DNA of 64,000 bases from Myxococcales bacterium (GTDB lineage Bacteria > Myxococcota_A > Polyangia > GCA-2747355): positions 5,316 through 69,315 of the forward strand of contig JAGQIK010000352.1 of assembly GCA_020431405.1 (NCBI GenBank). Reading direction: 5' to 3'. The translations under genes were made by a program, and so were the position numbers. Numbering within the stretch: position 1 is the first letter of the stretch; the number at the start of each line of letters is the position of its first letter. A model generated the notes under the pieces. That model was not told where the DNA came from. It worked only from the letters and a program-made list of their open reading frames with translations, and ran no database searches. Below are positions 2,041-25,133 of this stretch, piece after piece.

Positions 2041-2760
2041 ATGCGCCACTGGTCGTTGTTGCTGTCTGTGCTGGTCCTCGCGCTCGCCGCCTGTGGGTCG
2101 CGCACGCGTGCGGTCGGCGGCGACGCACGCGCGAGCGACGCGCGCGCCAGCGACGCCCCGGGTGCCGACGGCCCGCAGCCAGCGGGCTGCACGAACAACA
2201 CGCAGTGCGCGAGCACGCACTACTGCAAGCTCGACGGCGCCTGCGGCGCGCAGGGCCGCTGCGAGGCGCGGCCCATCACCTGCCCGAGTATTGCGGCGCC
2301 GGTGTGCGGCTGCGACGGCAAGACGCACGGCAACGCGTGCACAGCGGCCGGCGCGGGGGTCAGCGTGCGGCGCGACGGGCGCTGCGAGGTCGCCGGCTGT
2401 GACGCCGTCAAGTGCGGCGTGCTCGACGACTGCTGCACCTGCAGCGCGCTCGACTTTCTCAACAGCAAGGCGCCGCCGCCTTGTCCGGCGCCGTGTTTTC
2501 AGACGGTGTGCGCGGCGCGCGGCATCAAGCCGACGGCCTACTGTCTCGCGGGCAAGTGCCTGCTCGCCGACAGCAAGCCATGCCGCGGCGACGATGACTG
2601 CTTCGCCATCGACGACTGCTGCACATGCATGGCCTGGCCGAGGGATCTGAAGCCGCCGCTGTGCGATCTCACCTGCGCGCAGAGCAGCTGCTCGGCGCTC
2701 GGCCTGAGCGGCGCCAAACCGGCCTGCATCGAGGGCAGCTGCCGTCTTTCGCTGCCTTGA
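2041..2760 (+). CDS. Cys-rich lipoprotein with Kazal-type inhibitor domain
   Basis: Signal/lipobox MRHWSLLLSVLVLALAACGS; Kazal signature CPSIAAPVCGCDGKTHGNACTAAGAGVSVRRDGRCE; repeated DDCCTC motifs. Confidence 0.6.
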   Translation: MRHWSLLLSVLVLALAACGSRTRAVGGDARASDARASDAPGADGPQPAGCTNNTQCASTHYCKLDGACGAQGRCEARPITCPSIAAPVCGCDGKTHGNACTAAGAGVSVRRDGRCEVAGCDAVKCGVLDDCCTCSALDFLNSKAPPPCPAPCFQTVCAARGIKPTAYCLAGKCLLADSKPCRGDDDCFAIDDCCTCMAWPRDLKPPLCDLTCAQSSCSALGLSGAKPACIEGSCRLSLP

Positions 2761-2839
2761 TGGCGTGCAATTTCGGGTGCTTGAGGCGCAGTGGGATTTT
2801 TTCCGTCCACTTCGCGCGGTAGCGCCCACGAAGAAAAAG

Positions 2840-5011
2840 ATGCCCCGGTGTCGACGACAGCGTGGTGTGCGCGCGGCCTTCGGGGCGGCACTGACGCTCG
2901 CAGCAATGCTCGCCAGCGGGTGCAAGCTCGACCGCCCCAGCGCCACATCCGCCGAGCAGAAGCCGTGTCTGGCCTGCCACGAGGCGGATCGCGCGCGCGC
3001 CAAGTTCCCCGATCACCTCGCGACGGGCTATCCGACCAACTGCGAGCAGTGCCACTCGCAGAAGGAATGGAAGCCGGCCGCGTTCGACCACAGCGGCTTA
3101 CCGCTGGTCGGCGGCCACTCCAAGACCGACTGCGCCAGCTGCCACAGCAAAGAGCCGGTGCCCACCAAGTGCGTTGGCTGTCACGCCGAAGATCAGAAGC
3201 GCGGCCCCGGTCACACCGCGGCCGGTTTTAACACCGAGTGCCAGAGCTGCCACACGGTCATCGCGTGGAAGCCCGCCACCGACGTCGATCACAGCAAGTT
3301 CCCGTTCGAGGGCGGACACGCCAACGTGGCCTGCATCTCGTGTCACCCCGATCCGAGCCAGCCGTCCAAGCCCATCGGCACCACCTGCGTCGCCTGCCAC
3401 GAAAAGGACCGCAGCACGCCGAAGAGCCCCGACCATCTCAAGACGGGTTTCCCGACGACCTGCGAGAGCTGCCACACGATCCAGACCTGGAAGTCGGCCA
3501 CCTTCCCGCACTCCAAGCTGGCGCTGGTGGGCAAGCACCGCACGACGGCGTGCGCGAGCTGCCACACCGATCCGTCCAAGCCCGAGACAGCCAAGGGCAC
3601 GACGTGCGCCGAGTGTCACGCCGGCGACCGCCCCCAGGGCGCCACGGCTGATCGCCCCGATCACTTCGACGCGGCGCTGCCGCCCTGCCAGTACTGCCAC
3701 ACGGCCTTCGGCTGGAAGCCGGCGGCCAAGGACCACAGCAAGTTCCCGCTCACCGGCCAGCACGGCGGCGTGGCGTGCAGCACCTGCCACACCGATCCGA
3801 GCAAGCCGGACGTGCCCATCGCCAAGACCTGCGTTGGCTGCCACGAGGCCGATCGCTCGAAGCCGACGTTCCCCGATCACCGCGCCGTCGGCTTCTCCAC
3901 CGACTGCGACAGCTGCCACTCGACCAACGGCTGGAAGCCGGCGACGTTCGATCACGGACTCAAGTTCCCGCTCACCGGCGGCCACTCGGGCGTGACCTGC
4001 GCCAAGTGCCACGCCACCGAGCCGGTGCCCAAGACCTGCGTCGGCTGCCACCAGAACGACATCCCGAGCGGCGCCACCGCCTCGCGTCCCGATCACACGG
4101 CGTCAGGCTTCTCGACCGCGTGCAGCGACTGCCACGGCACGGGCGGCTGGAAGCCGGCGTCGTTCAACCACACCAAGTTCCCGCTGACGCAAGCGCACGC
4201 CGGCCCGGTCTGCACCGACTGCCACACCGATCCGCAAAACCCGTCGGTGCCGACGGGCACCACCTGCGAGCAGTGCCACCTCGGCGATCGTCCGCCGGCA
4301 GGCACCAACCCCGATCATCTCGTCGGCGGCTTCCCGACCACCTGCGAGAGCTGCCACACGCCTACGGTGTGGAAGGGCGCGACGTTCGATCACTCGGTCT
4401 ATCTGCCGCTGACCGGCAAGCACAGCATCGTGACCTGCACGCAGTGTCACAACACGACGCCGATGCCGACCAAGTGCGAGGGCTGCCACACGCCGCCGGC
4501 GACCAACCACACGGCGACGACCAACTGCGACAACTGCCACAGCGTCAACGGCTGGAAGCCGGCCGTCGTCGACCACAGCAAGTTCCCGCTGACGGGCAAG
4601 CACGCCAGCACCGCGTGCACGCAGTGCCACACCAACCCGAGTCAGCCTAGCGTGCCGACCGCGACGACGTGCGTGGGCTGCCACAACAGCGATCGCAGCA
4701 CGCCGACGATCCCGAACCATCTCGCCAATGGCTTCCCGACCGATTGCGCGCAGTGCCACAGCACCAACGGCTGGACGCCGGCGAGCTTCACGCACACCTT
4801 CCCGATCACGTCGGGCAAGCACAAGAACAAGCCCTGCAACAACTGCCACCTCGACCCCAACAACCTCAAGACCTACTCGTGTCTGGGGACCTGCCACGAG
4901 CACTCGCTGAGCAAGATGGACGACAAGCACAAGGGGCGCAGCGGCTACATCTCCGGCGACTTCATGCACTGCACCAACTCGGGCTGTCATCCCAACGGCA
5001 GGACGCCGTAG
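2840..5011 (+). CDS. multiheme c-type cytochrome lipoprotein (about 27 CXXCH plus 2 variant haem motifs, paired-CXXCH repeat architecture)
   Basis: ATG 2840 gives MPRCRRQRGVRAAFGAALTLAAMLASGC lipoprotein signal; about 50-aa repeat units each carrying two CXXCH (CLACH, CEQCH, CASCH, CVGCH ... CNNCH) and DHSKFPLTG spacers; upstream 25 codons of the track ORF are not coding. Confidence 0.8.
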   Translation: MPRCRRQRGVRAAFGAALTLAAMLASGCKLDRPSATSAEQKPCLACHEADRARAKFPDHLATGYPTNCEQCHSQKEWKPAAFDHSGLPLVGGHSKTDCASCHSKEPVPTKCVGCHAEDQKRGPGHTAAGFNTECQSCHTVIAWKPATDVDHSKFPFEGGHANVACISCHPDPSQPSKPIGTTCVACHEKDRSTPKSPDHLKTGFPTTCESCHTIQTWKSATFPHSKLALVGKHRTTACASCHTDPSKPETAKGTTCAECHAGDRPQGATADRPDHFDAALPPCQYCHTAFGWKPAAKDHSKFPLTGQHGGVACSTCHTDPSKPDVPIAKTCVGCHEADRSKPTFPDHRAVGFSTDCDSCHSTNGWKPATFDHGLKFPLTGGHSGVTCAKCHATEPVPKTCVGCHQNDIPSGATASRPDHTASGFSTACSDCHGTGGWKPASFNHTKFPLTQAHAGPVCTDCHTDPQNPSVPTGTTCEQCHLGDRPPAGTNPDHLVGGFPTTCESCHTPTVWKGATFDHSVYLPLTGKHSIVTCTQCHNTTPMPTKCEGCHTPPATNHTATTNCDNCHSVNGWKPAVVDHSKFPLTGKHASTACTQCHTNPSQPSVPTATTCVGCHNSDRSTPTIPNHLANGFPTDCAQCHSTNGWTPASFTHTFPITSGKHKNKPCNNCHLDPNNLKTYSCLGTCHEHSLSKMDDKHKGRSGYISGDFMHCTNSGCHPNGRTP

Positions 5012-5056
5012 CGCGCGCGTCAGTGCCTCGCGATGCCGCGGCGGGGCCGGGGCTCC

Positions 5057-5923
5057 CTAGTTTCTACAGCACAGCACGCCGCCGTTAGCCGCGGCGGTCT
5101 TGCGCACGGCGCTCGCCTCGCTGGTGTCGCCGCTGCCGCAGGCCCAGGTCGCGGGCAGCTGGCTGCACAGGTCGTGCGAGAAGCGATCGAGCACGCCGCA
5201 GGTGGTGGCGTCTGGCGCGGCGCCGACGGTGCCGCAGCCGAAGATATCGTTTTCGCCCTCGCCGCACATGGCGCCGCCTGGGCCGCTCTGCCGCACGACG
5301 AAGAACACCTGCGCGCCGGCAGCGAAGGCGGCGCCCGCGCAGCCGTTGCCGCCGCTGCGTGTTTTCACTTCGCTGGCGTCTTCGCAGACGTGCCAGCCGA
5401 CCTGGCAGAGATCGGCGACGTTGCAGTCTTTGCCGCTCGGATTCTGGCTGGCGTTGCCCGCCGCGCGGCCGCAAGCCGGCGCGCGCGTGTCGACGAGCCC
5501 CGGCAGCGACCAGCCGCCCGCGCAGGCGGCGATGTCGGGATAGCTCGCGGTCGCGCCGAAGCCTTCGCGCGTGCCGTCGGCGCAGCCGTTGTCATTGCGG
5601 CAGCGCCCGTCGGCGCCGCACTCGAAGGAGACGCAGTCGGCGGCCTGCGCGCAGCTGCCGCCCAGCGGGCAGGTCGGACAGAGCGCGCCGCCGCAGTCGA
5701 CGTCGGTCTCGTCGCCGTCGCGCCGCCCGTTGGCGCACGAGGGCGGGCCCGAGGGGAGCGTCGGCGTGGCGCTGCCGTCGGCGCTCGCGCCGCCGTCGCC
5801 GCTTTGTGCTGCGGCGTCGGCGCTCGGCGCGCCGGCTTCGTCGAACAGATAGTCGACGCTGCCGCTGCAGCCAGCGCAGGCGAAGGCGAAGACAAGCGCG
5901 GCGAAGGGGAGCGCTGCGCTCAC
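5057..5923 (-). CDS. Cys-rich secreted protein, translationally coupled to upstream DUF1552 gene
   Basis: GTG start at 5921-5923 overlaps TGA stop of upstream gene (GTGA); signal VSAALPFAALVFAFACAGCSGS; many Cys pairs (CGGALCPTCPLGGSC, CQVGWHVCED); the 40-aa N-terminal extension in track is rejected. Confidence 0.55.
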   Translation of the reverse strand: MSAALPFAALVFAFACAGCSGSVDYLFDEAGAPSADAAAQSGDGGASADGSATPTLPSGPPSCANGRRDGDETDVDCGGALCPTCPLGGSCAQAADCVSFECGADGRCRNDNGCADGTREGFGATASYPDIAACAGGWSLPGLVDTRAPACGRAAGNASQNPSGKDCNVADLCQVGWHVCEDASEVKTRSGGNGCAGAAFAAGAQVFFVVRQSGPGGAMCGEGENDIFGCGTVGAAPDATTCGVLDRFSHDLCSQLPATWACGSGDTSEASAVRKTAAANGGVLCCRN

Positions 5924-7251
5924 GTCAGGATGCCGGAGGCCTTGCCGCTGCTGGCGTAGGCGCCCGCACCGAACTTGGTCTTCTGCACGCCGTAGAGCTT
6001 GAGCAGGTCGAGGTGCAGGTCGGCGAGGTTGCGGCACTGATTCTTGTCGCTGACCTTGGCCGCGTCGACGCCGTAGATCTCCTGGCCGAGCTTCAGCTCG
6101 CCCGAGACGTTCTCGCTGGCGACCAGCAGCGGGATGTTGGCCGGCGAGTGCGAGCGACCGTCGGACATGTTGCTGCCGAGCAGCACGACGGTCTCCGAGA
6201 GCAGGCCGGCGGCCTTCATGCGCGTCAGCAGGTCAGCCCACAAGCCGACCTGGATCTGATTGATGCGGATCAGGCGCGACCAGTTGTTGTGCGCCGAGTC
6301 GTGCTGCTCGCCGGCGACCGTGCTCGTCGGCTGGTTGGGCCCGATGCCGTCGTTGTACATGATCGTCGCGGCGCGCGTGAGGTCGCACTGCATAGCGGCG
6401 ACGATGATCTTGTGCATGGTGCGAAAGTTGCGGACGTAGCTTTCGCCGGCGGTCTCGGCGGGGGGCTTCTGGCAGTTGGTCGCGAGCGCGGCGTTGGCCA
6501 GCTCGCCTTCGACCTCGCGGATGCTCGCGGCGTAGGCCTCGAGCCGCTGTTTGTCAGACGCGGCGAGGCGCGCTTTGTGGCGCTTGTACTGGTCGAGCAC
6601 GCCGTCGAGGATGCTCTGCCGGCGTTTGATCAGGTACGCCGCCTGTTGGTTGGAGACGTTGTCGCCGCTGCCGAAGACGCGCGTGTAGAGCTGCATCGGG
6701 CTGAGGATGTTGGAGATCGGCGTCGTGTCGTCACGCCAGGCGATGGAGTTGACGTAGTTGATCGAGCCGGTCTTGTCGTGGGCTGCGTCCCAGTTGGGCA
6801 CCTGGTTGTAGCCGACGTGCAGCGAGCGAATGCGCGCGTTGGGCGCGGTGTCGGCGATGTATTGGTCGAGGGTCTTGGCGCACTTCTGATAGTTGGGGTC
6901 TGCGCTCGGGTTGGACGCAGAGGTTGTGCCGACGGGCGACGACGAGAGAAACGCCGCCGTGCCGGCCCAGTGCACGTCGAAGTTAGCGACCGCGCGATAG
7001 CCGCGCAGCACGCTGACGTTGCCCTTGAGGCCGGCGTCGGCGATGGGCTTGAGCGCGCCGCCGAGCTGACCCGAGTAGCCCCAGTCACCGTTGTTGCCAT
7101 CGGGCATCGGCGCGCCGCTGCCGAAGAAGCAGCCGATGAAGCGCTTCTTCAGCGGCGCGGCGGCGTGCGCGGCGCGCTCGAGCGACGACTCGAGCGTGGG
7201 CAGCGCGATGCACACGCCGAGGCCTTTGAGCAGGGTACGTCTCGAGATCAT
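5920..7251 (-). CDS. DUF1552 family protein with Tat signal
   Basis: MISRRTLLKGLGVCIALP twin-arginine signal typical of DUF1552; about 440 aa; ATGA overlap with upstream DUF1592-family gene. Confidence 0.7.
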   Translation of the reverse strand: MISRRTLLKGLGVCIALPTLESSLERAAHAAAPLKKRFIGCFFGSGAPMPDGNNGDWGYSGQLGGALKPIADAGLKGNVSVLRGYRAVANFDVHWAGTAAFLSSSPVGTTSASNPSADPNYQKCAKTLDQYIADTAPNARIRSLHVGYNQVPNWDAAHDKTGSINYVNSIAWRDDTTPISNILSPMQLYTRVFGSGDNVSNQQAAYLIKRRQSILDGVLDQYKRHKARLAASDKQRLEAYAASIREVEGELANAALATNCQKPPAETAGESYVRNFRTMHKIIVAAMQCDLTRAATIMYNDGIGPNQPTSTVAGEQHDSAHNNWSRLIRINQIQVGLWADLLTRMKAAGLLSETVVLLGSNMSDGRSHSPANIPLLVASENVSGELKLGQEIYGVDAAKVSDKNQCRNLADLHLDLLKLYGVQKTKFGAGAYASSGKASGILT

Positions 7252-8993
7252 CTACTCGCTCCGTGGTCGACCTGGGTGAACGCCTTGCTGACCACGAGGC
7301 GCAGCACCATCTCGCGCAGCGTCGGCGCCTTTCCGTCATCGGCGAACGTCAAGTACTCGAGCAGCGGGCCGTCGATGTGCGTGTCCACCAGACGGCGCGT
7401 GGCGTAGATCGTCAGCTTCTGCGCGGCGCAGCTCTGAAACTCGGGCAGCGCGGCGAGCATGCTGTTGAGCTCGGCGAACGTCTTGAAGGGCTTTCCGAGC
7501 AGCTCGCTGTCGGTCTCTACCGGCAGGCCGGTGTCGGCGTACGCGCGGCGCAAGCGGCCGAACATGTCGAAGCCCTCGAGGCCGAGCCCGATCGGATCCA
7601 TGTACTGGTGGCAGCCGTAGCAGACGCTGCCCGAGTTGCGATGGCTGTTGGCGCGCTCCTTGACGGTCGCCGTCGGTGGGATGCTCTGCTGCACCTTCTG
7701 GATTTGCTCGAACAGTGACGCGTCAGGCAGCGGCACGACCTTGCAGAGGATGCGATCCTGCACCAGGCGCCCGCGATGGATCGGGTTGGTTCGCAGCTTC
7801 GACGCGCTGAGCGTGAGCCAGCTGCCCTGCTGCAGGATGCCGCCACGCTCGTCGGTGGCGACGCGCGTCAGCTCGTCGCCGAAGCTGCCCGCCAGGCTGT
7901 AGTGCGCGCCGAGGCGCTTGTTGATGTAGGCGAAGCCAGGACGCAGGATCGCCGTCACGGGTAGGTCGTTGACGAGCACGTCGTGCAGCGTGCGCCAGCT
8001 CTCTTCGTACATGTCGTGCTCGATGGAGCCGGGCTTGCTGCTGCCGAGCTGGCGAAAGTCGAACCACTGCCCCATGAAGCTCTTGATGAACGTCTCCGAG
8101 TTGGCGTCGATGAGCCGCTCGGCCTGCGCGCGCAGCACCTTGGGGTCGGCGAGCGAGCCGTCCTCGGCGTGCGACCACAGCTCGTCGTCAGGAAGCGACG
8201 CGCTGAACATCAGCGCCAGGCGGCTGGCCAGCTCGTAGCTGTCGAGATCGCGCACGCCGGCGAACTCGGGCGCGGGCGGCGCTTCGATGCGGTGAAGCAG
8301 CTGCGGTGCGAGCAGCAGCGTGCCGAGCGCGACGCGCATGGCGTCGACGAAGATCTCGGCGGGCTGCTGCAGATTCTGTCGGGCGAGCGCGAGCGCGCGG
8401 TCGTAGCTGGCCTGGAGCGCCGCGCGCTCGTCGGCGTCGAGCGGGCGGCCGTAGGCGCGTTTGGCAAGCGGCTCGAGGATCGACGCGGCGCAGCTCGCGT
8501 ACGCGAGCTCGGCTTCGCTTTGCGCCTTGCAGGTGAGCAGCGTGGCCTGCGCCGGCGCGGCGAGCACGAGGTCGAGGATCTTCTCGACCGTGTCGAGGCG
8601 ATCACGGATCGCTTTGGTGTCGAGGTCGGTCCACGGCACGGCGTCGAAGCCGGAAAACTGGGTGGTCGCCGTCCAAGCAAGCTGCAGATCGGGCGAGAGC
8701 TGCTGGCCGAGCACGGTCGACACCACGCGCAGGTACTCGTGGTTGGAGAGGTTGCGCACCATCGGTGGGCCCGCGGTGATGCGCGAGCGCAGCGTGGGCA
8801 GATCCGCCGCCGGCGGCTGGTTGGGCGCAGGCTGGTTGGGCGTGACGGGGTTGTTGTTGGCGGGGTCGCCGATGTCGCCCGATCCGCAGGCGACGAGGAG
8901 CGCGACGAGGGCGAGCAACGCGACCAGGCGCGCGTGGGGGCTGCTGCTGCGGCGGCGGGGCATTCGCGCCCACCAGAGCAACGGCCGTACCAC
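7248..8993 (-). CDS. DUF1592/DUF1588/DUF1585-family protein (planctomycete-type, partner of DUF1552), putative haem-binding CXXCH
   Basis: N-terminal lipoprotein-like signal (LALLALVALLVACGSGD); conserved GSVCYGCHQYMDPIGLGLEGFDMFGRLR block characteristic of DUF1588; alternative start at M11. Confidence 0.6.
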   Translation of the reverse strand: MVRPLLWWARMPRRRSSSPHARLVALLALVALLVACGSGDIGDPANNNPVTPNQPAPNQPPAADLPTLRSRITAGPPMVRNLSNHEYLRVVSTVLGQQLSPDLQLAWTATTQFSGFDAVPWTDLDTKAIRDRLDTVEKILDLVLAAPAQATLLTCKAQSEAELAYASCAASILEPLAKRAYGRPLDADERAALQASYDRALALARQNLQQPAEIFVDAMRVALGTLLLAPQLLHRIEAPPAPEFAGVRDLDSYELASRLALMFSASLPDDELWSHAEDGSLADPKVLRAQAERLIDANSETFIKSFMGQWFDFRQLGSSKPGSIEHDMYEESWRTLHDVLVNDLPVTAILRPGFAYINKRLGAHYSLAGSFGDELTRVATDERGGILQQGSWLTLSASKLRTNPIHRGRLVQDRILCKVVPLPDASLFEQIQKVQQSIPPTATVKERANSHRNSGSVCYGCHQYMDPIGLGLEGFDMFGRLRRAYADTGLPVETDSELLGKPFKTFAELNSMLAALPEFQSCAAQKLTIYATRRLVDTHIDGPLLEYLTFADDGKAPTLREMVLRLVVSKAFTQVDHGASR

Positions 8994-9199
8994 GCAGCAA
9001 CTGCTGTGATCATTGCGGATCTCACCGCGCTCGGTGGGGAAGTTGCCCCGTCGCTGCGGACGACTGTGCGCACGTGGCGCCTGCGCAACCGGGGGCCACT
9101 TTTCGGTGCGGTGGCGCTGCCAGCTGCCACCTGGCGCGACCGAGATCGCAATGTTTCCAGATGCTTGAGTTTGGCCTGCACGTTGCTCTAGAACGCACC

Positions 9200-10534
9200 A
9201 TGACCCGCTCGTTGGCGCTGATCACCTGCCTGCTGCTCAGCTTTGCTGGGGTCAGTCGTGCCGCACCCGTCACAGCGCGGGCTCGCCGCCTCGCGCGCGC
9301 CGTGATGCGCGACAACGCCACGCTGCTGTCGCGCAACCGCGCTGGCTTCGCTGCCAAGGCGGAGTTGCTCGCCAGCTCGCCCTTCATCTACTACCGCGCC
9401 GCCGCCGGCCGCTTCTATGCGTACCTGCAACGCGGCATTCACCGCACGGCGCGCTACCGCGCCCTCACCAAGGTGCTCATCAACGGCGACCCGCACATCA
9501 ACGGCAACACGGGTCCGCTGCGCGGCAAGCGCTGGGGCATGATCGACCAAGACGAGGCCGGCCACCCGGCGCCGTTCACGGTCGACCCGATGCGCTGGGC
9601 CGCCGGCGTCTTCCTCGCCGCCGCCGAGCACGGGCTCAGCGCTCGCGACGCGCGCGCGATGGTCGAGACATTCCTCGAAGCCTACGTCGACGGCCTTCGC
9701 CGCTACCCCAAGCGCAGCAAGCTGGACAAGCCCATCGCCGACCTGGTGAAGGGGTCGCGGCGCGCCAAGCGCCGCTCGCTGATCGAGGACAAGCTCCAAC
9801 GCACGGGCGCGTTCAAGACCGACGCGGGCACCAAGCGCATCGAGGGCGGCGAGCGCGCCGAGCTTGTCGACGCCACGCGCCGCTTCATCGCGCAGCTGCC
9901 GGCCAAGCAGCGCCGCAAGCTCGAGCGCTACGAGATCTCCGACATCGTCGACCGCGTGGGTCGCGGCGGCGGAAGCCGTGGCCTGCGCCGCGTGCGTGTC
10001 TCGCTGGTGCTCCGCGCGACGCGCGGCCAGCGCGATCGGCGCGGCAAGGCGCTGATCATCGAGCTCAAGGAGCAGCCGCCGTCGCCCGCGCGCGTCTTTG
10101 GTGCCTCGCCCGTCGCCGAAGACGACGCCGAGCGCGTCATCGCGATGCGCCGCCGGCAGGGCGCGCACGGCAAGCTCGACGGCTTCGTCAAACATCGCGG
10201 CGTGAGCTTCAGCGTCGTCGAGAAGCGCGCCGGCGAGGTCGAGCTCGAGGCGAGCCGCATCACCGACAAAGACTTCCGCGTAGCGCTGGCCAAGGCCGAC
10301 GGCGCCGGGATGGCCTACGCACACGCACGCTCGGGTATCAACGCATCGGCGTCCAAGACCGCCAAGGCGATCCTCGCCGACATCGACGGCGCGAGCAGCT
10401 TCGGTGGCAAGCAGGCCTTTGTCAGCGAGCTCGTGCGGCGAGCCCAGCGCGCCGCGCGCGTGATGACCGCACAGCACGAGACCTACGTCGGCGGCGCCCT
10501 CGACATGATCCGACAGCAGCTAGGCTCGCAATAG
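9200..10534 (+). CDS. DUF2252-like secreted protein
   Basis: ATG 9200 gives MTRSLALITCLLLSFAGVSRA signal; SPFIYYRAAAGRFY and INGDPHINGNTG blocks resemble DUF2252 (SPFaFfRG / GDaHlsNFG); the 42 upstream codons in the track are rejected. Confidence 0.55.
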   Translation: MTRSLALITCLLLSFAGVSRAAPVTARARRLARAVMRDNATLLSRNRAGFAAKAELLASSPFIYYRAAAGRFYAYLQRGIHRTARYRALTKVLINGDPHINGNTGPLRGKRWGMIDQDEAGHPAPFTVDPMRWAAGVFLAAAEHGLSARDARAMVETFLEAYVDGLRRYPKRSKLDKPIADLVKGSRRAKRRSLIEDKLQRTGAFKTDAGTKRIEGGERAELVDATRRFIAQLPAKQRRKLERYEISDIVDRVGRGGGSRGLRRVRVSLVLRATRGQRDRRGKALIIELKEQPPSPARVFGASPVAEDDAERVIAMRRRQGAHGKLDGFVKHRGVSFSVVEKRAGEVELEASRITDKDFRVALAKADGAGMAYAHARSGINASASKTAKAILADIDGASSFGGKQAFVSELVRRAQRAARVMTAQHETYVGGALDMIRQQLGSQ

Positions 10535-10553
10535 CCTGCGCTATAGTGGCGGG

Positions 10554-12482
10554 GTGATTTTCAGATCTGTGCTCGTCCCCGTGATGCTCGCGGCGCTCCT
10601 CGCGTGCGGCTGCAGCAGCGACGCCAACAACAACAACAACACGCCCGCCACGTTCGAAGAGGCCTGCGCCCAGGTGCCTGGTTGCCAGACGCCCGAGAAC
10701 GCCGTCGACGGCCCATCGGTGGCGATCTGGCAGGTGATGCTGCAGCGCGACGCGAGCGGCGCTGCCAGCGTGGGAGAGGTGCGCGAGGTCGACGTGCCGA
10801 GCGGCACCGGCGTTCCGCAGGGGCCGCTGTGGGGCGCCTATCGACTCGTAGCCTACGATGCGGCGGGAAAGGTGCTCGACGCGCAGGCGATCCGTTTCCC
10901 CGAGCGGCTGGTCGTCGAGACCGTCGACGGCACGTCGGAGGAGACCGACTTCACCAACAAGGCCTCGTCGGCGCTGGGCTACCTCGAAGTCGACGCCAGC
11001 GTGGCCAAGATCGCGATCACCGACGCCGACGGCAACCAGCTCGACGCGCGCGACGCACCCGCCCCCGGCGAGCGCCGCAGCGCCTCGCTCGCGGGCGTGC
11101 GGCGAAGCGCCGTGTTGCAGGCCACGGCGCGCACGCCTTGCTCGCACGTGCTGCTGCTCGAGCAGAGTGACACGGCGCTCTTCACTGACGCGATCGTCAA
11201 CGAGGGCTACAAGCTCGCGCCGTTGCCGCTGTCGGCCCAGGCGGTGATCCAGGCGGCGCTCGGCCGGCTGACGCCGCTGGCGTGCGCCGCCGTCGGGCGC
11301 ATCGCCTTCGTCGCGTCGGACACGACGACCACCGGCGCGTGGGTCAACGGTCGCTTCGGCGACATGATGATCATCAACGCCAACTTCGACGTCGAAGGCC
11401 ACACGTTCGACGACGCCGGTCTGACCAACGCCGTGACGCGCAGCATCCTCGAGGGGTCGGTGGTGCACGAGGCGGGACACAACGTCTGGCGTCTTCTCAA
11501 CATGGAGGGTGCAAACAATGTCGCCTTCGCCGACGGCTGGTGGACCGAGCGCCAGCGCGGCCCAGCGCGCGCGGCGATCGCCCGCACGCGAATGCTGCGC
11601 GGCTTTGGCTACGAGTGGCGCCGCGTCCACGATTCGTTCGTCGCGCAGGGCTGGGCCAAGCCCTATGCAACGTATCCGCTCGCGCGCTTCAGCTCCGCCA
11701 CGCCGAGCGACGAAGACCTCGTGCGCCATGGGTTCATGTCGATCTACGGCAATCTCGACGACGCCGAAGACATCGCCGAGCTGATGCGCTGGCCGATCTT
11801 CGGCGCCGCCTCGCGCGCCGCCGGTCTGGCTGACGGTTGGGGGCTGCTCGAGACCGCAGACGTGGGCTGCGTGCAGATGGGCGCCCACGGCGACAAGAGC
11901 GTGCCGCAGAAGCTGGCCGTCATCTACACCAAGCTCGCCTTCATGCACGACCTGGGGTTGATCTCCGACCAGGCCTTCACGCGCTGCGCTGGCAGCAACA
12001 TCAGCATTCCGACGCCGGTCAACGGCTTCACCGTCTACGAGTCGGGCAGCGAGAAGCGGCGCTTCGATAAGAGCCCTTCGGCGATCATCGGCTCGCGCAG
12101 CGACAGCTACGTCTTCGTGATGACCGCCGAGGGTACGGCGAGCTTCGACAACGCCGACTACGCAGCCACGGTGCGGCTCGAGCTGCAGCTGCAGAGCTTC
12201 GGCTTGCTCGAGCAGCTGCTCGGCGCGCCCGACGTCAACCTGGTGGCCTGGCCGCGCGGGCTTTATCCGCTCGCCGCCGGATCACCCAACACGTTCTCGC
12301 TCGCGATGCCGGATCAGCCCTTCGGTGACTTTCAGTCGACCAAGGGCTGGGTGCTCGTCACAAACGCGACCAACGAGCTCATCGTCGGCTCGGTCTACCT
12401 CGAGCAGGCGTTCCGTCCGCGTGCAGGTGTGCCCCAGACGTTCGACCCGCCGCTGCAGTTCCGTTTTCGCATGAAGAAGTAG
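10554..12482 (+). CDS. lipoprotein with HEXXH zinc-metalloprotease motif
   Basis: GTG start; lipobox MLAALLACGCSS; Asn-run linker; SVVHEAGHNVW signature; no other recognisable domain. Confidence 0.55.
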   Translation: MIFRSVLVPVMLAALLACGCSSDANNNNNTPATFEEACAQVPGCQTPENAVDGPSVAIWQVMLQRDASGAASVGEVREVDVPSGTGVPQGPLWGAYRLVAYDAAGKVLDAQAIRFPERLVVETVDGTSEETDFTNKASSALGYLEVDASVAKIAITDADGNQLDARDAPAPGERRSASLAGVRRSAVLQATARTPCSHVLLLEQSDTALFTDAIVNEGYKLAPLPLSAQAVIQAALGRLTPLACAAVGRIAFVASDTTTTGAWVNGRFGDMMIINANFDVEGHTFDDAGLTNAVTRSILEGSVVHEAGHNVWRLLNMEGANNVAFADGWWTERQRGPARAAIARTRMLRGFGYEWRRVHDSFVAQGWAKPYATYPLARFSSATPSDEDLVRHGFMSIYGNLDDAEDIAELMRWPIFGAASRAAGLADGWGLLETADVGCVQMGAHGDKSVPQKLAVIYTKLAFMHDLGLISDQAFTRCAGSNISIPTPVNGFTVYESGSEKRRFDKSPSAIIGSRSDSYVFVMTAEGTASFDNADYAATVRLELQLQSFGLLEQLLGAPDVNLVAWPRGLYPLAAGSPNTFSLAMPDQPFGDFQSTKGWVLVTNATNELIVGSVYLEQAFRPRAGVPQTFDPPLQFRFRMKK

Positions 12483-12516: not shown

Positions 12517-14019
12517 CTAGCGGCGCGTCGCGCGGCGCACAGCTTTGAGCAGGCGGCGCTGCAGCTTCGAGCGCGGCACGTAGGCGGCGATCTTGAGCGC
12601 CAGCGCGCGCGACATCTCGTCCATGGCGTCGTCGGGGCCGACGACGACCACCGGCAGGCCAGAGAGCTTGCCGTCCGCGAGCAGCGGCGCCAGCGCGTCG
12701 AGGGCCACGCGCGGCTGTGCGCCGAGATCGACGACGATCGCCTTCTCGTCGTCGGGCGTGATCGCGGCCGGGCTGTCGGCGCGCACGACGCGATAGCCCG
12801 CGCGGCGCAAGTGCGTTGTCGGCGCGTCGGGGGCGCCGGCCGCGCCGTGGTCGACGGCGATGATCTTGCCTTCGGCAGGCTCGGGCTCGATGCGCGGAGC
12901 GCGCGGCGGTGCGTCGCCGAGCACGGCGGAGCGCTCGGCGCGTGTGGCGGCGTAGGTGCCGGTCTTGCGCCGGTGCTGGTCCGAGCTGCGGCCTTCGATC
13001 TGATCGAGCGCCTCGAGCAAGCGCGCCTTGAGGGCGCCCGCGCTGGCGGGCCGCGTCTCGCGGCGCTTGCGCAGCGCCCAGAGCGTGATCTCGTCGAGAG
13101 CGCCGTGCACGTCCGGCGCGGCTTCACTTGGCGGCGAGGGGTCGTCGAGCACGTGCTTGAAGATCAGCGCCTGAACGGTCGGGGCCTTGAACGGCAGGCC
13201 GCCGGTGAGCAGCTCGTAGAGGATCACGCCGAGGGCGTAGATATCGGTCTGCGGCCCGATCGGCTCGCCGGCGCACTGCTCCGGGGCCATGTAGGCGGGC
13301 GTGCCAAGCACGTCGCCTTCGCGCGTGAGCTTGACCGCGCTGTCGGCGATCTTGGCGATGCCGAAGTCGACGATCTTCACGCGCTTGTCGGGGTCGGCGA
13401 GCATCACGTTTTCGGGCTTGAGATCGCGGTGCACGACGCCGGCGGCGTGCGCGACGTCGAGCGCGTCGCAGATCTCGCCCACGATGCGCACCGTCTCGGC
13501 CAGCGGCAGGCGCTTGTCGGGCGAGCTCTTGACCAGCGACTCGAGCGACTGACCCGATAGATACTGCATCGCGATGTAGCTCTGGTCGTTCCACTGGCCG
13601 TAGTCGTAGATCGCGACGATGCCGGGGTGCTCGAGCTTGGAGAGCGCCAGCGCCTCGCGCTCGAAGCGCAGCAGCCGATCACGGCTGTCGACGAGGTGGC
13701 GGTGCACGAACTTGATCGCCACGTCGCGTGCGAGGCCGATCTGCTCGGCGCGATAGACCAAGCCCATCGCGCCTTCGCCGAGGAACGAGCGGATACGGAA
13801 GCGCTTGTTGATCAGCTGTCCGATCAGCGCGTCGGTGCTGGCCGGCTCGGTGGTGGCGCTGCCGAGCCCACCCGTGCCGGCGTTGCCGCCGACGTTGGCG
13901 CCTTGAGCGAGCGTCTCGCCGGTGGACGGTGCCTGCGTTCGCTCGGGCGGCGGCAGGGTCACGCCGCAGCTGGGACAGTTGCCGTCGACGAGGTCGCGGC
14001 CGCAGCGCATGCAGATCAT
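12517..14019 (-). CDS. Ser/Thr protein kinase with N-terminal zinc ribbon and C-terminal receiver-like domain
   Basis: ATG 14017-14019 preceded by GAGAGGAAG RBS and overlapping cyclase TGA stop (ATGA); MICMRCGRDLVDGNCPSCG ribbon; kinase motifs HRDLKPEN, DFG, TPAYMAPE; C-terminal IIAVD...AIVVDLG...PVVVVG...LKIAAYVP pattern resembles a REC fold. Confidence 0.8.
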   Translation of the reverse strand: MICMRCGRDLVDGNCPSCGVTLPPPERTQAPSTGETLAQGANVGGNAGTGGLGSATTEPASTDALIGQLINKRFRIRSFLGEGAMGLVYRAEQIGLARDVAIKFVHRHLVDSRDRLLRFEREALALSKLEHPGIVAIYDYGQWNDQSYIAMQYLSGQSLESLVKSSPDKRLPLAETVRIVGEICDALDVAHAAGVVHRDLKPENVMLADPDKRVKIVDFGIAKIADSAVKLTREGDVLGTPAYMAPEQCAGEPIGPQTDIYALGVILYELLTGGLPFKAPTVQALIFKHVLDDPSPPSEAAPDVHGALDEITLWALRKRRETRPASAGALKARLLEALDQIEGRSSDQHRRKTGTYAATRAERSAVLGDAPPRAPRIEPEPAEGKIIAVDHGAAGAPDAPTTHLRRAGYRVVRADSPAAITPDDEKAIVVDLGAQPRVALDALAPLLADGKLSGLPVVVVGPDDAMDEMSRALALKIAAYVPRSKLQRRLLKAVRRATRR

Positions 14020-15753
14020 GCTTCCTCTCGCAGCTCGAAGATGCGCACCTGCTCCTTGCGCCCGGTGATATCGCGGGCGCCGAGGTCGACGACATCGAAG
14101 TCTTCGCCGAGCTCTTCGCGGGTGGCTTCGCTGATCAGGATCTGTCCCGGCTTGGCGAGCATCTCGAGGCGCGCCGCGATGTTTACCGTGTCGCCGATGG
14201 CCGTGTACTCCATGCGCTTTTCCGAGCCGAGGTTGCCGACGATCGCCGTCCCGGTGCTGATGCCGATACCGAGCTGGAGCTCGCGTCCGAACTCGTCGGC
14301 CCACTTGGCGTTGCCCGTCTCGAGCCACTCGATCATCTCGAGTGCCGCCAGCGCGGCGCGCTCGGCGTCGTCGTCGCGTGGCTCGGGCGCGCCAAAGACG
14401 GCCATCACGCAGTCGCCGATGAACTTGTCGACCATGCCGCCGTGGTTGAAGACAATGCCGGTGAGAAACGTGAACATCTCGTTGAGCAGCCGCCCGCACG
14501 ACGTCTTCGGGCGCGTGCCGCTCGGCGAGCGGCGTGAACGCCACCACGTCGGCGAACAGCACGGTGACCTTGGCGCGTTTTCCGCCGAGCTCGATCGACT
14601 GGCGCTCGTCGACGATCGCCTCGACCAGCGCGTCGCTGAGGTAGCGGCTCATGTTGGCGCGCACGCGCGCCTCGGCGACCAGCCGGTCGCGCGACTCTTC
14701 GAGGCTGCCGGCCATGCTGTTGAAGGAGCGCGCCAGCGCGCCGACCTCGTCGGAGGCGCGCGGCGTGACGCGCGCGGAGAAGTCACCGGACTCGACCAGA
14801 GCCGCGGCACGCGCGATGTCGGTGACCGGCTTGCCGATGCGCCGTCCGAGCAGCAGCCCGACGACCAGCGCGAGCAGCGCCACGACGCCCCCGGCGATCG
14901 CGGCGTAGCGCCAAGCAGCGCGCTCGGCGAGGTAGACCCAGGTGTTGCTCTGCTGCACGACGACGCCCCACTGCACGGCGGGCAGCGCCAGCAGGATCGT
15001 CAGCCGCCGCGCCGAGCCCTTGCCAAGATCGGCGGCGCGCGCGGTGGGGCGCGTCAAGCGCTGGTCGCTCTGGCGCAGCCACGCCATCAGCTCCTTGCTC
15101 GGCTTCGCCGCGCCCCCTCGCGCCAACACGCGCTGTTGGCGATCGACGACGTACAGACCACCACCGGCCTCCTTCTCGAGCCGTCGCTGCGCCGCCTCGC
15201 TGACGGCGTCGATCAGCGGCTTCATCGACACGCGGCTGCGCAAGAAGCCATACACGCGACCTTGCGCCGTCTTGATAGCGATGGTGTGCAAGAGATATGG
15301 CCGTGGTCCCTCGGGATGCTCTTCGATCAGCGGATCGCCCGCCTGCGCGGCGAGCTTGGTGCGAAGCGGCGCCGGCAGCGCGGTCGCGGCCTTCTTCTTG
15401 GCGCTCGAAGCGCCGGCCTGCAGCGCGAGCGCGAGCTCGCCGTCGGGGCTGAAGACCTCGACACGATCGAGCAGATGGGTGCCGCGCAGCCTGCTGCGCA
15501 CCATCGCGACGCGCTGCTCCTGGGTCAGCGAGGTCTCCGTCAACGCGGCGCTGATATCGCCGATGGTGTTGCGAACGCGGCTGAGAAACACGTCGACCTT
15601 CACGCGCACGCTCTCGGCCGTGGCGGTGCGCAGCACGCGAGCCGAGGCGGCCATGTTGTCGGCGTGCTCGTTGGCGAGCACGTAGGCCAGGCCGCCGACG
15701 CTGAGCAGCGAGACGCCGAGCAGCGCGAGCGCGATCTTGATCCACAGCTTCAC
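14016..15753 (-). pseudogene. membrane HAMP-domain adenylate/guanylate cyclase interrupted by a 1-nt insertion frameshift (or sequencing error) in the catalytic domain
   Basis: GTG start 15753; two TM segments flanking an about 240-aa periplasmic region, HAMP, then VTVLFADVVAFTPLAERHAPEDVV in frame A; the catalytic domain continues in frame B (LLNEMFTFLTGIVFNHGGMVDKFIGDCVMAVFGAP...ISTGTAIVGNLGS..YTAIGDTVNIAARLE) to TGA 14016; the frames join at a GGG run (plus-strand CCC 14493-14495), and removing one G restores EDVVRRLLNEMF. Confidence 0.6.
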
Positions 15754-15772
15754 CGCGTCACCGCTTCACGTT

Positions 15773-19571: not shown

Positions 19572-20546
19572 CTAGCCGAGCGGGGACTGTCCGGCCACGA
19601 CCAGAATCCAGCGCAGCGCGAGGCCGCCGACGAGCAGCAGCACGGGCGCGACGAGCGCGGCCCTGCGCCGGCGCAGCACCTCGATGCTCTCCAGCGCCAG
19701 CGGCACCACCAGGCCGGCGACGACGACCAGCGCCCAGAAGATCGCCGTGAAGCGGCCGCCAAGAAACAGCGCCGCAGCGCGCTGGCCAGCCTGCGCGCCG
19801 CTGACCAGCCCGACGAAAAGCAGCGCCAGCAGCGCCAGCTCGACGCCGATCGCGATCATGTCCCAGTTGCGCAGCAGCGCGTGCTCGCGATGGGTCAGTG
19901 GCAGCAGCATCGTCAGCGCCGCGCCGGTAGAGAAGCCGGAGACGAGAAAAAGGGGGCCCAGCAGCGACGAGCTCCACAGCGCGCGCGCCCCGAGGGCGCC
20001 GAGCAGCACGCCGGTGTAGGCGCCGAGCGCGACGCCAAGCGCGATGTTGGCCCACGTCAACGTGCGCTGGCGCTGCTGGGCCCAGCTGTGTAGGCCTTCG
20101 AGGATGCGGCGCAGCGCGCCGATACGCAGCTTCGCTGCGAGCCAATCACGCTCGCTCTCGGTCGTCTGTGACAGCCCGAAGAGCAGCGTGGCCGGGTAGA
20201 TCGCCAGCAGGATCCAGGCGCCCCACGACATCGGCGAGCTCAGCTGAAACGTCGTGTAGAAGCGCAGCACGTGGCGCTTGAGGTCGAGGTCGAGCAGCAG
20301 CGCGAACATGCCGAGCCACAGCGCGGCCGGCGCGGCGAGGATCATCAGCCGTCCCCAGGGCGAGCGCTGCGACGTCTCACTCGCGTCGGCGCCGCCGTCG
20401 GCGAAGCGGCGCGCCAGCAGCGCCGAGACGATCATCACGCCCGCGGCGAGGCCGCCGAGAAACAGATAGACGGGGATCTCCCAGTGCCACACGGGCTGGC
20501 CCAGCGCGCTCAGTGGGTTGTGATGCACGCGTACGATCTCGTTCAT
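19572..20546 (-). CDS. NrfD/PsrC-family polysulfide-reductase-type integral membrane anchor
   Basis: MNEIVRVHHNPLSALGQPVWHWEIPVYLFLGGLAAG typical NrfD/PsrC N-terminus; about 8 predicted TM segments; last gene of the arsR-psrAB-yeeE-psrC operon. Confidence 0.7.
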   Translation of the reverse strand: MNEIVRVHHNPLSALGQPVWHWEIPVYLFLGGLAAGVMIVSALLARRFADGGADASETSQRSPWGRLMILAAPAALWLGMFALLLDLDLKRHVLRFYTTFQLSSPMSWGAWILLAIYPATLLFGLSQTTESERDWLAAKLRIGALRRILEGLHSWAQQRQRTLTWANIALGVALGAYTGVLLGALGARALWSSSLLGPLFLVSGFSTGAALTMLLPLTHREHALLRNWDMIAIGVELALLALLFVGLVSGAQAGQRAAALFLGGRFTAIFWALVVVAGLVVPLALESIEVLRRRRAALVAPVLLLVGGLALRWILVVAGQSPLG

Positions 20547-20547
20547 G

Positions 20548-21765: not shown

Positions 21766-22298
21766 CGCCACTGCCTCCTGACGAAGTACGCCATGGCGTA
21801 GCCGCCGGCGAAGACCGCCAGCATGAAGACCCACGAGCCGGCCGACAGCATCGCGCCGCCCGAAAGGGCCTGCCCCGACGTGCAGCCGCGCGCCAGACGC
21901 GCAGCGATGCCCATCACGATGCCGCCGCCCAGCGCCGCAGCGAGCCGCCACGGCACGGAGATGTTCGGCCCACGGACGATCTTCTTCTTCAGCCGTCCCG
22001 CGCTGTAGGCGGCGACGAGGGCGCCGAGCAGCACGCCGAGCACCTCGAAGACGAGCCAGTTGTCGAGCGGGTGGTGCCCGCCCGCCGAGAGCGTCGCCAT
22101 GTGCGGGTTGCTCGCGACGTGCGCCGGCGCCAGCGCCGACAGCGCCGTCACGCCCACGCGGTTGGCCGCGCCCGACGCGCCCAGCCCGTGCGCCGCGACG
22201 AGCAGGGAGGCGAGCAGCACCAGCCCCAGCGCGACGCCGGCGACGTACGGGTTCCAGAAGCGTTCGGCGCGAGCGGTTGTTTCAGCTTGCTCTGGCAT
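21762..22298 (-). CDS. YeeE/YedE-family sulfur-transport membrane protein (first half-transporter)
   Basis: AGGAGGAAAG RBS 8 nt upstream of ATG 22296-22298; ARGCTSG signature Cys loop; 4-5 TM segments. Confidence 0.7.
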   Translation of the reverse strand: MPEQAETTARAERFWNPYVAGVALGLVLLASLLVAAHGLGASGAANRVGVTALSALAPAHVASNPHMATLSAGGHHPLDNWLVFEVLGVLLGALVAAYSAGRLKKKIVRGPNISVPWRLAAALGGGIVMGIAARLARGCTSGQALSGGAMLSAGSWVFMLAVFAGGYAMAYFVRRQWR

Positions 22299-22311
22299 CA
22301 CCGCTTTCCTC

Positions 22312-25106: not shown

Positions 25107-25133
25107 ATCTAGAACCTTTCGGGAGTGCGCGCG

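What the first reader, a model, noticed from the sequence alone, without database searches (positions are those of the whole stretch)
5057..8993. Fully translationally coupled DUF1592-family / DUF1552 / Cys-rich trio placed tail-to-tail with a 27-haem cytochrome
Three minus-strand genes overlap at ATGA (7248-7251) and GTGA (5920-5923). The first is a lipoprotein-like DUF1592/1588/1585-family protein carrying a single CYGCH haem-type motif. The second is a Tat-signal DUF1552 protein. The third is a Cys-rich secreted protein. DUF1552 and DUF1592-family proteins are a conserved but functionally uncharacterised pair, best known from Planctomycetes. Here they gain a third coupled partner and sit convergent to a giant multihaem cytochrome. 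This hints at a periplasmic or extracellular redox module rather than a random arrangement.
Basis: partly seen in the sequence, partly recalled or inferred. Interest (0 to 1): 0.6.

Follow-up and report, generated by a model that had tools for sequence, protein, structure and literature searches.

The report
Conserved three-gene envelope operon; cytochrome neighbour incidental
Three tightly packed genes for exported proteins form a real operon that is conserved in one group of soil myxobacteria, but its function is unknown and the giant multihaem cytochrome next door looks like a chance neighbour.

Summary
Gene A (7248-8993, minus) matches PSD5, PSD4, PSCyt3 and PSD2 above Pfam's cut-offs and has one CYGCH. 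Gene B (5920-7251) is DUF1552 (E=1e-49) with an SRRTLLK Tat-like leader. Gene C (5057-5923) is a real coding gene with 24 Cys. The ATGA and GTGA overlaps exist, and the convergent cytochrome has 27 CxxCH.

A-B-C recurs in the same order, with gaps of -4 to +10 nt, in 11 of 12 testable loci where B is at least 65% identical. All the named ones are Labilithrix-like Myxococcota. C is absent from all 34 testable loci with more distant pairs. Some of those carry a different secreted third gene: ankyrin repeat, beta-helix, RCC1 or a TonB receptor.

No trio locus holds a multihaem cytochrome or any other gene that flanks the trio in the window. The three closest cytochrome homologues have no A, B or C nearby.

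B models as a sulfatase or alkaline-phosphatase fold without the formylglycine motif. It has an invariant histidine cluster instead. C combines a knottin-like module with a 175-residue Cys-rich domain that is absent from Pfam, NCBIfam and PDB.

Best reading: a self-contained envelope module, with a haem lipoprotein plus a Tat metalloenzyme as the core and a clade-specific binding subunit. Function is unproven.

The parts
7248..8993 (-). Gene A: lipoprotein with PSD5(DUF1595)-PSD4(DUF1592)-PSCyt3(DUF1588)-PSD2(DUF1585) domains. Longest ORF shown; the likely start is ATG 8963.
   Evidence: Pfam hits above the gathering score. Lipobox LLVAC here, and lipoboxes in the orthologues whose N-termini were included. 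GC3 is 0.88.
7608..7622 (-). CYGCH haem-c attachment motif of gene A (residues 458-462 of the 581-aa ORF).
   Evidence: Only CxxCH in the protein. C, C and H are invariant in 14 aligned homologues down to 22% identity, together with H441 (invariant) and M455 (12 of 14).
5920..7251 (-). Gene B: Tat-leader DUF1552 (HXXSHH family) protein with a sulfatase / alkaline-phosphatase-superfamily fold.
   Evidence: Pfam 1.2e-49. AlphaFold model pLDDT 86.5. Foldseek against PDB gives sulfatases, LtaP and alkaline phosphatase at E about 1e-5, TM 0.3-0.44. A profile hits an S1_19 sulfatase at E=0.047.
7225..7245 (-). Twin-arginine motif SRRTLLK of gene B.
   Evidence: R4 and R5 are invariant in 45 homologues. 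The Pfam TAT_signal match is sub-threshold.
5057..5923 (-). Gene C: Cys-rich lipoprotein-like protein (288 aa, 24 Cys), the clade-specific third gene.
   Evidence: GC3 is 0.90. More than 850 homologues. The lipobox Cys is conserved. It lies directly downstream of B in 11 of 12 close relatives.
5594..5743 (-). Gene C residues 61-110: 8-Cys module (SC.NG..DGDETD.DCGG..C..C..G..C....DC.S..C....C), knottin-like.
   Evidence: Conserved in all trio-linked C proteins. The only PDB Foldseek hits are cystine-knot toxins, and they are weak (E 3.6-5.2). The same module forms 14-31-copy arrays in other proteins. No Pfam model matches it.
5060..5587 (-). Gene C residues 113-288: 14-Cys alpha/beta domain (GC.DG.REGF ... 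GWHVC ... RQSG ... NDLFGCG ... GGVLCC).
   Evidence: pLDDT 93-98. No Pfam, NCBIfam or PDB sequence hit. No Foldseek hit in PDB or BFVD. Widespread in Myxococcota and fused to many extracellular modules.
7248..7251 (-). ATGA overlap of the A stop and the B start, with GGAG 9 nt upstream.
   Evidence: Read from the sequence.
5920..5923 (-). GTGA overlap of the B stop and the C start.
   Evidence: Read from the sequence. The equivalent junctions in relatives are -4 to +10 nt.
5043..5056 (+). Short GC-rich hairpin in the 45-bp gap between the convergent stops of the cytochrome gene and gene C. A weak terminator-like site that marks the operon end.
   Evidence: Consensus scan found 1 site against 2.7 expected in shuffles, so it is not significant on its own.

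Best explanation
Shown:
- A, B and C form a self-contained three-gene operon. All three products leave the cytoplasm: A and C carry lipoprotein signal peptides and B carries a twin-arginine leader.
- A-B is the ancient, widely distributed core.
- C is a clade-specific addition, found in Labilithrix-like Myxococcota. It occupies a third position that other lineages leave empty or fill with unrelated secreted repeat or binding proteins: ankyrin, beta-helix, RCC1 or a TonB receptor.
- The 27-haem cytochrome is an unrelated convergent neighbour.

Inferred mechanism:
- B is the catalytic subunit. It has a sulfatase-fold scaffold that has lost the formylglycine nucleophile motif. It carries an invariant His-rich site instead (H94 at the nucleophile position, H317, H321, H368, with D364 nearly invariant). 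I predict this is a metal centre loaded before Tat export.
- A holds one covalently bound haem c (invariant CxxCH, with H441 or M455 as the candidate sixth ligand). It passes electrons to or from B's metal site, or gates substrate access. On this reading the pair is an envelope oxidoreductase rather than a plain esterase.
- C is fully disulfide-bonded (22 non-lipobox Cys, so 11 possible disulfides). It acts as a membrane-tethered binding or targeting subunit that gives the core its clade-specific ligand or location.
For: Operon and conservation:
- Same order and gaps of -4 to +10 nt in at least 12 distinct loci, while the flanks differ.
- C is present in 11/12, 0/5 and 0/29 testable loci for B identity classes >=65%, 45-64% and <45%. 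A is upstream in 8/8, 3/3 and 24/26.

Variable third gene:
- A secreted ankyrin-repeat protein in 5 loci, a beta-helix lipoprotein in 2, an RCC1 Cys-rich lipoprotein in 1 and a TonB receptor in 1. No tightly linked third ORF in 15 of 46.

Export signals.

B's fold and residues:
- Foldseek hits to sulfatases, LtaP and alkaline phosphatase, and a weak S1_19 profile hit.
- Invariant H94, H317, H321, H368; D364 nearly invariant.
- The sulfatase C-x-P-x-R...LTG region reads (D/V)-H-...-L-(T/S).

A's haem motif is invariant.

C's domain is fused elsewhere to lectin, EGF, TSP3, FG-GAP, Kelch, RCC1, OmpA, TIG and FGE domains. That is typical of an extracellular binding module.

A related PSD-type domain (DUF1587) sits in Cellvibrio Cbp2D beside a c-type cytochrome domain. 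The paper studied that cytochrome domain as a possible LPMO electron donor (PMC8981238).

Cytochrome not linked.
Against: - No experiment exists for any member of the A or B families.
- All characterised alkaline-phosphatase-superfamily enzymes are hydrolases, transferases or mutases, not redox enzymes.
- The fold match is weak (TM no higher than 0.44).
- The metal site is inferred from conservation alone. I could not inspect the model's coordinates.
- No complex prediction was possible, so physical contact between A, B and C is untested.
- One locus (L134) has no C. Its B is 67% identical, but only B's last 90 residues are on the contig.
- C's domain mostly occurs without A-B (about 70 loci). 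Its role here may be generic.
Confidence: 0.5

Rival explanations
1. The trio works together with the convergent 27-haem cytochrome as a periplasmic or extracellular electron-transfer module.
For: The genes end tail-to-tail 45 bp apart. A has a haem motif. The window holds other redox genes: a molybdopterin oxidoreductase, NrfD and a c554-like cytochrome, all 10-27 kb away.
Against: None of at least 12 trio loci has an ORF with 3 or more CxxCH, or a homologue of the cytochrome, within 6-10 kb. The three closest cytochrome homologues lack A, B and C nearby. The genes are convergent, so they cannot share a transcript. The gene downstream of the trio differs between relatives: an RRM protein, cyanophycin/Mur-ligase genes, or others.
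Confidence: 0.06
2. A-B is a purely hydrolytic system, a divergent sulfatase- or phosphatase-like esterase. A is a substrate-binding lipoprotein whose haem is structural or sensory. C is simply a co-transcribed surface protein with its own job.
For: B's only structural relatives are hydrolases and transferases of the alkaline-phosphatase superfamily. Tat export also occurs in phosphatases such as PhoD and PhoX (established knowledge). The Verrucomicrobia paper reports PSCyt genes near sulfatase genes, and PSCyt proteins fused to carbohydrate-binding modules. C's domain is usually independent of A-B.
Against: B lacks the C/S-x-P-x-R nucleophile motif and the acidic residues at the end of strand 1 that bind the metal in sulfatases. 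The CxxCH is invariant across A homologues down to 22% identity, which argues for a functional haem. Tight linkage of C is maintained at 53-66% identity while the flanks turn over.
Confidence: 0.25
3. C is the client rather than a subunit. A-B matures, modifies or processes the Cys-rich lipoprotein, for example by oxidative folding or a post-translational modification. The variable third genes in other lineages would then be alternative clients.
For: The third position is always a secreted protein of varying fold. C has 22 non-lipobox Cys that need correct pairing.
Against: 15 of 46 pairs have no tightly linked third ORF. Ankyrin and beta-helix third genes have few Cys (2-18). Hundreds of C-domain proteins exist without an adjacent A-B.
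Confidence: 0.1

Closest known systems
PSCyt3/PSD-domain protein + DUF1552 (HXXSHH) gene pair of Planctomycetota and Verrucomicrobiota (domains first defined in Rhodopirellula baltica; pairing noted in PMC5615132)
   Same: Same Pfam domains in A (PSD5-PSD4-PSCyt3-PSD2) and in B (DUF1552). Same A-then-B order. Conserved CxxCH and twin-arginine leader.
   Different: This is a Myxococcota sub-clade. The HXXSHH motif is degenerate here (H-D-S-A-H-N). A is a lipoprotein. A clade-specific Cys-rich third gene is coupled to the pair. Function is unknown in both.
Type I (formylglycine) sulfatases, family S1, and the wider alkaline-phosphatase superfamily
   Same: B's predicted core fold. There is weak profile similarity over the segment carrying H317/H321 and D364/H368. 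A helix-N-terminal motif resembles ...SRAALLTG.
   Different: No C/S-x-P-x-R formylglycine motif; an invariant His is in its place. No acidic pair after strand 1. TM-scores are only 0.3-0.44. B is obligately paired with a haem protein.
DUF1501 + PSCyt1/PSCyt2/PSD1 (DUF1549/DUF1553) pair of Planctomycetota
   Same: From my own knowledge and PMC5615132: a second pairing of a planctomycete cytochrome-type multidomain protein with an unknown-family protein. The logic looks analogous.
   Different: Different Pfam families. I did not test it here.
Cellvibrio japonicus Cbp2D (extracellular multidomain protein with the X183 c-type cytochrome domain and a DUF1587 domain; PMC8981238)
   Same: A PSD-type domain occurs with a c-type haem domain in a secreted protein that was studied as a possible extracellular electron donor.
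   Different: DUF1587 was not detected in gene A. Cbp2D has carbohydrate-binding modules and no DUF1552 partner is described. This is an analogy only.

Membership tests
PSCyt3/PSD (DUF1588-DUF1592-DUF1595-DUF1585) proteins | Pfam domain matches above the gathering score | tested here: met
   PSCyt3 89.6 bits (cut-off 27), PSD4 84.8 (23.3), PSD5 37.4 (34.2), PSD2 33.7 (25.8).
PSCyt3/PSD (DUF1588-DUF1592-DUF1595-DUF1585) proteins | CxxCH haem-attachment motif in the PSCyt3 region | tested here: met
   CYGCH at residue 458. The column is invariant in 14 aligned homologues, and a CxxCH is present at this position in two further paralogues. Actual haem binding was not tested.
   No hit at E<=0.01. 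It is not required for the architecture seen in relatives.
DUF1552 (HXXSHH) | Pfam PF07586 match | tested here: met
   E=1.2e-49, 170 bits, covering 305 of 307 profile positions.
DUF1552 (HXXSHH) | The name-giving H-x-x-S-H-H motif | tested here: not met
   The window has H317-D-S-A-H321-N. Only the first and fifth positions (both His) are kept. Distant members read HHEMSHH or HHSLSHY.
DUF1552 (HXXSHH) | Twin-arginine leader | tested here: met
   SRRTLLK. R4 and R5 are invariant in 45 sequences. The Pfam TAT_signal match is sub-threshold. Tat-dependence is not testable here.
DUF1552 / PSCyt3 conserved pair | The A-type gene lies immediately upstream of B on the same strand | tested here: met
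   35 of 37 testable loci across all identity classes.
Type I sulfatase (S1) | Alkaline-phosphatase-superfamily alpha/beta core | tested here: met
   36 PDB chains at E<=1e-3, all sulfatases, LtaP, alkaline phosphatases or related proteins, but TM is only 0.3-0.44.
Type I sulfatase (S1) | C/S-x-P-x-R formylglycine motif | tested here: not met
   The equivalent segment is F-D-V-H94-W-A-G-T-A-A-F-L-S-S. His is invariant and there is no Cys/Ser-x-Pro-x-Arg.
Multihaem-cytochrome electron-transfer gene cluster | Recurrent co-location of the cytochrome gene with the partner genes across genomes | tested here: not met
   None of at least 12 trio loci and none of 3 cytochrome-homologue loci show co-location.
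Any catalogued family for gene C | A sequence or fold match to a described family | tested here: not met

The most novel reading that the evidence does not exclude
The DUF1592-family/DUF1552 pair is the invariant core of a modular envelope machine, and its third gene is a swappable specificity subunit. In Labilithrix-like Myxococcota that subunit is built from two uncatalogued Cys-rich modules. One of them is a 175-residue domain with a confidently predicted fold that has no solved relative. It is used in hundreds to thousands of myxobacterial surface proteins. If so, the ankyrin, beta-helix, RCC1 and Cys-rich third genes would point to what the long-unexplained planctomycete-type cytochrome pairs act on.
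Probability: 0.2. Interest if true: 0.55.

Novelty: new variant of a known kind. Interest (0 to 1): 0.33.

Why it matters
The PSCyt/PSD plus DUF1552 pair is present in many copies in Planctomycetota, Verrucomicrobiota and Myxococcota genomes, and it has had no function since its description. Three results here give concrete handles for experiments:
- The core is a haem lipoprotein plus a Tat-exported, sulfatase-fold protein with a His-rich site.
- Different lineages bolt different secreted binding proteins onto it.
- The multihaem cytochrome link is spurious, so effort should not go there.

The Cys-rich C-terminal domain of gene C is also a candidate new domain family for the databases.

Tried and rejected
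- Link to the cytochrome: searched all trio loci for multihaem ORFs and for homologues of the window's flanking genes. None were found. The reverse test on cytochrome homologues also found none.
- A conserved neighbour that might explain C's domain: all-against-all clustering of ORFs around about 80 C-domain loci gave only Ser/Thr kinases, which are expected by chance in Myxococcota, and the A-B pair in the trio clade.
- Sequence or profile matches of A, B or C to solved structures: only a marginal sulfatase hit for B.
- A Sox-like analogy (cytochrome + hydrolase + Cys-carrier protein): rejected. C's non-lipobox Cys number 22, which is even, and they sit in a compact confident model, so a free carrier thiol is unlikely.
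- The FGE-sulfatase fusion of C's domain (P0199) was tempting, given B's sulfatase fold. It is one architecture among many, and B has no formylglycine motif.
- Exact-match lookup of B found no contig, although P0121 and P0324 later showed that the source is an NCBI Myxococcales MAG contig of 77,184 bp.
- No paralogue of A, B or C exists elsewhere in the window.


Full report
**Observation**

The window is about 70% GC. At that GC content, third-position GC separates real genes from spurious ORFs.

- The three minus-strand ORFs are real. Third-position GC is 0.88 for A, 0.93 for B and 0.90 for C.
- The junctions read as ...AGA TGA overlapping agATGAtc (7248-7251) and ...ACG TGA overlapping acGTGAgc (5920-5923).
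- Gene A matches PSCyt3/DUF1588, PSD4/DUF1592, PSD5/DUF1595 and PSD2/DUF1585, all above Pfam's gathering scores. It carries one CYGCH.
- A's likely start is ATG 8963, which gives a lipoprotein signal ending LLVAC.
- Gene B matches DUF1552 over nearly the whole model (E=1.2e-49). It begins MISRRTLLK.
- Gene C has 24 Cys in 288 residues and no Pfam, NCBIfam or PDB match.
- The convergent gene 2765-5011 has exactly 27 CxxCH in c7/c3-type repeats.
- The window derives from an NCBI Myxococcales MAG. P0121 and P0324 are 100% identical to B and to the cytochrome, and both sit on a 77,184-bp contig.

**Is the trio more than chance?**

Gene C has more than 850 homologues. I fetched 80 genome loci around C-family members and 55 metagenome loci around B-family members. 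I also fetched several contigs by exact protein lookup.

After removing duplicates, the counts by B identity class are as follows.

| B identity to the window | A directly upstream | C directly downstream |
|---|---|---|
| 65% or more | 8 of 8 | 11 of 12 |
| 45-64% | 3 of 3 | 0 of 5 |
| below 45% | 24 of 26 | 0 of 29 |

- In the trio loci the order is always A, B, C. The junction gaps run from -4 to +10 nt.
- In those loci A is 58-63% identical, B 67-73% and C 53-66% identical to the window proteins.
- The flanks differ from locus to locus.
- The named genomes are Labilithrix sp. MAGs, Myxococcales bacterium 68-20 and Polyangiaceae MAGs.

So the trio is a conserved, mobile three-gene unit in one Myxococcota clade, and C is a late addition to an old pair.

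**The cytochrome**

- No trio locus contains an ORF with three or more CxxCH within the fetched 6-10 kb on either side.
- No trio locus contains a homologue of the window cytochrome, or of the GDSL lipase, Kazal-like, DUF2252 or 642-aa genes that flank the trio here.
- Downstream of C the relatives have an RRM protein, or cyanophycin-synthetase and Mur-ligase genes.
- In the reverse test, the three closest cytochrome homologues of comparable repeat type (63%, 53% and 49% identity) have no A, B or C nearby.

The two genes are convergent and 45 bp apart. I conclude the juxtaposition is incidental.

**What the proteins are**

*Gene B.* An AlphaFold model (pLDDT 86.5) matches sulfatases, lipoteichoic-acid synthase LtaP and alkaline phosphatases in the PDB. 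The best E-values are about 1e-5, but TM-scores are only 0.3-0.44. A profile of 45 homologues gives a marginal hit to an S1_19 sulfatase over the segment that carries H317/H321 and D364/H368.

- The invariant residues are R4, R5, G46, H94, Q130, F193, S213, D216, E248, H317, H321, H368 and G428. D364 is nearly invariant.
- H94 sits at the N-terminus of the helix where sulfatases carry C/S-x-P-x-R. Distant members read G-D-H-A-R-S-A-A-T-W-L-T-G there, which recalls the sulfatase ...SRAALLTG motif. The formylglycine motif itself is absent.
- The family's HXXSHH motif is reduced to H-D-S-A-H-N in this clade.

B is therefore a sulfatase-fold protein that is not a canonical sulfatase. I infer a His-rich metal site loaded before Tat export.

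*Gene A.* The orthologues whose N-termini were included have lipoboxes. They have two invariant Cys pairs (C145 with C158, C407 with C512) and an invariant C448-x-x-C451-H452. H441 is invariant and M455 is present in 12 of 14. No solved relative was found.

*Gene C.* The model is very confident for residues 110-288 (pLDDT 93-98).

- Residues 61-110 form an 8-Cys module. Its only PDB matches are cystine-knot toxins, and they are weak.
- The same module forms arrays of 14-31 copies in other proteins and has no Pfam model.
- Residues 113-288 form a 14-Cys alpha/beta domain with no match in Pfam, NCBIfam, PDB sequences, PDB folds (Foldseek) or BFVD.
- A profile finds 589 cluster representatives at E<=1e-30 and 4289 at E<=1e-3. 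The larger figure includes proteins that match only the N-module.
- The C-terminal domain is fused elsewhere to C-type lectin, EGF, TSP3, MopE, FG-GAP, Kelch, RCC1, Lcl_C, TIG, Ig-like, OmpA and FGE-sulfatase domains.
- About 70 stand-alone copies have no conserved neighbour.

This is the behaviour of a promiscuous extracellular binding or structural module.

**The third position is variable**

Among 46 unique B loci with room downstream, 15 have no tightly linked same-strand third ORF. Where there is one, and it is not C, I found:

- a secreted ankyrin-repeat protein of about 500-570 aa in five loci (B 25-28% identical, gaps -4 to +19);
- a beta-helix lipoprotein in two loci;
- a 1002-aa RCC1-repeat lipoprotein with 58 Cys in one locus;
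- a TonB-dependent receptor in one locus.

The common theme is a secreted protein built for binding.

**Mechanism**

- Shown: co-linear and tightly spaced genes, export signals on all three, an invariant haem motif in A, a sulfatase-like fold and invariant His cluster in B, and clade-specific interchangeable third genes.
- Inferred: A and B form an envelope enzyme in which A's haem exchanges electrons with a metal centre in B, or controls access to it. C is a lipid-anchored, disulfide-locked adaptor that supplies ligand or location specificity.
- Thin outside support for a redox role: a PSD-type domain sits beside a c-type cytochrome domain in Cellvibrio Cbp2D. That paper studied the cytochrome domain as a possible electron donor to lytic polysaccharide monooxygenases (PMC8981238).
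- Against a redox role: every characterised alkaline-phosphatase-superfamily enzyme is non-redox.

I give the combined model 0.5. The structural claims (operon, conserved trio, incidental cytochrome) are much firmer than the chemistry.

**Comparison with what is known**

The pair itself is already described as a conserved pair of unknown function. [quoted passage not shown] Literature searches for the DUF numbers returned no functional study.

The new elements are:

- the Myxococcota trio with the Cys-rich lipoprotein;
- the general pattern of a swappable third gene;
- the fold assignment and motif analysis of B;
- the uncatalogued domains of C.

**Verdict**

This is a new variant of a known but uncharacterised kind, of modest interest.

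Noticed in passing
L131:1869-3383, L133:7314-8840, L139:1496-3088, L141:6849-8390, L143 (third ORF after B): In distant DUF1592-family/DUF1552 pairs (B 25-28% identical), the gene tightly following DUF1552 (gap -4 to +19 nt) is a secreted protein of about 500-570 aa. In four of the loci it is made almost entirely of ankyrin repeats (Pfam). The L143 protein clusters with these by BLAST only. This looks like a second recurrent trio type.
   Followed up: partly
L087:9349-10749, L096:1528-3741, L136:532-3540, L140:7268-9757: Other third genes after the pair: homologous beta-helix lipoproteins (L087, L096), a 1002-aa RCC1-repeat lipoprotein with 58 Cys (L136) and a TonB-dependent receptor (L140).
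   Followed up: partly
L086:1078-14713: One Myxococcota contig carries three DUF1592-family/DUF1552 pairs within 14 kb. An ECF sigma factor and a FecR-like anti-sigma gene lie between the second and third pair, which hints at surface-signal regulation of the pairs.
   Followed up: no
window 5060-5587 (gene C residues 113-288) and P0190-P0323: The 14-Cys domain is an uncatalogued family: 589 cluster representatives at E<=1e-30. It is often at the extreme C-terminus of very large proteins (up to about 3000 aa), sometimes in tandem, and is fused to many adhesion-type domains.
   Followed up: partly
window 5594-5743 (gene C residues 61-110); P0194, P0195, P0227: The 8-Cys DGDETD.DCGG module forms arrays of 14-31 copies in proteins of 947-3082 aa that have no Pfam annotation for the repeat.
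   Followed up: no
window 19572-25133 (-): A polysulfide/thiosulfate-reductase-like cluster: NrfD membrane subunit (19572-20546), sulphur-transport protein (20548-21951) and a molybdopterin oxidoreductase catalytic subunit with an Fe4S4 domain (22869-25133). A probable small subunit ORF lies at 22312-23010.
   Followed up: no
window 2041-2760 (+): A 239-aa ORF with a borderline Kazal-type inhibitor domain match (E=2.6e-4) ends 5 bp before the longest cytochrome ORF. It may be co-transcribed with the cytochrome gene. NCBI calls the cytochrome as 701 aa, so its true start is probably downstream of 2765.
   Followed up: no
window 30288-34579 (+): A DUF2330 protein (702 aa) is followed by a 755-aa protein with a cytochrome c554-like region and TPR repeats.
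   Followed up: no
window 9074-12482 (+): Divergent from gene A lie a DUF2252 protein (486 aa) and a 642-aa protein with no Pfam match. Neither is conserved beside the trio in relatives.
   Followed up: yes
window 12517-18007 (-): A 1078-aa HAMP plus Ser/Thr-kinase protein lies next to a 744-aa LysM-FecR-OmpA protein. OmpA-type homologues of the latter lie within 1-5 kb of stand-alone C-domain genes in L039, L044, L046 and L051. This may be chance.
   Followed up: no
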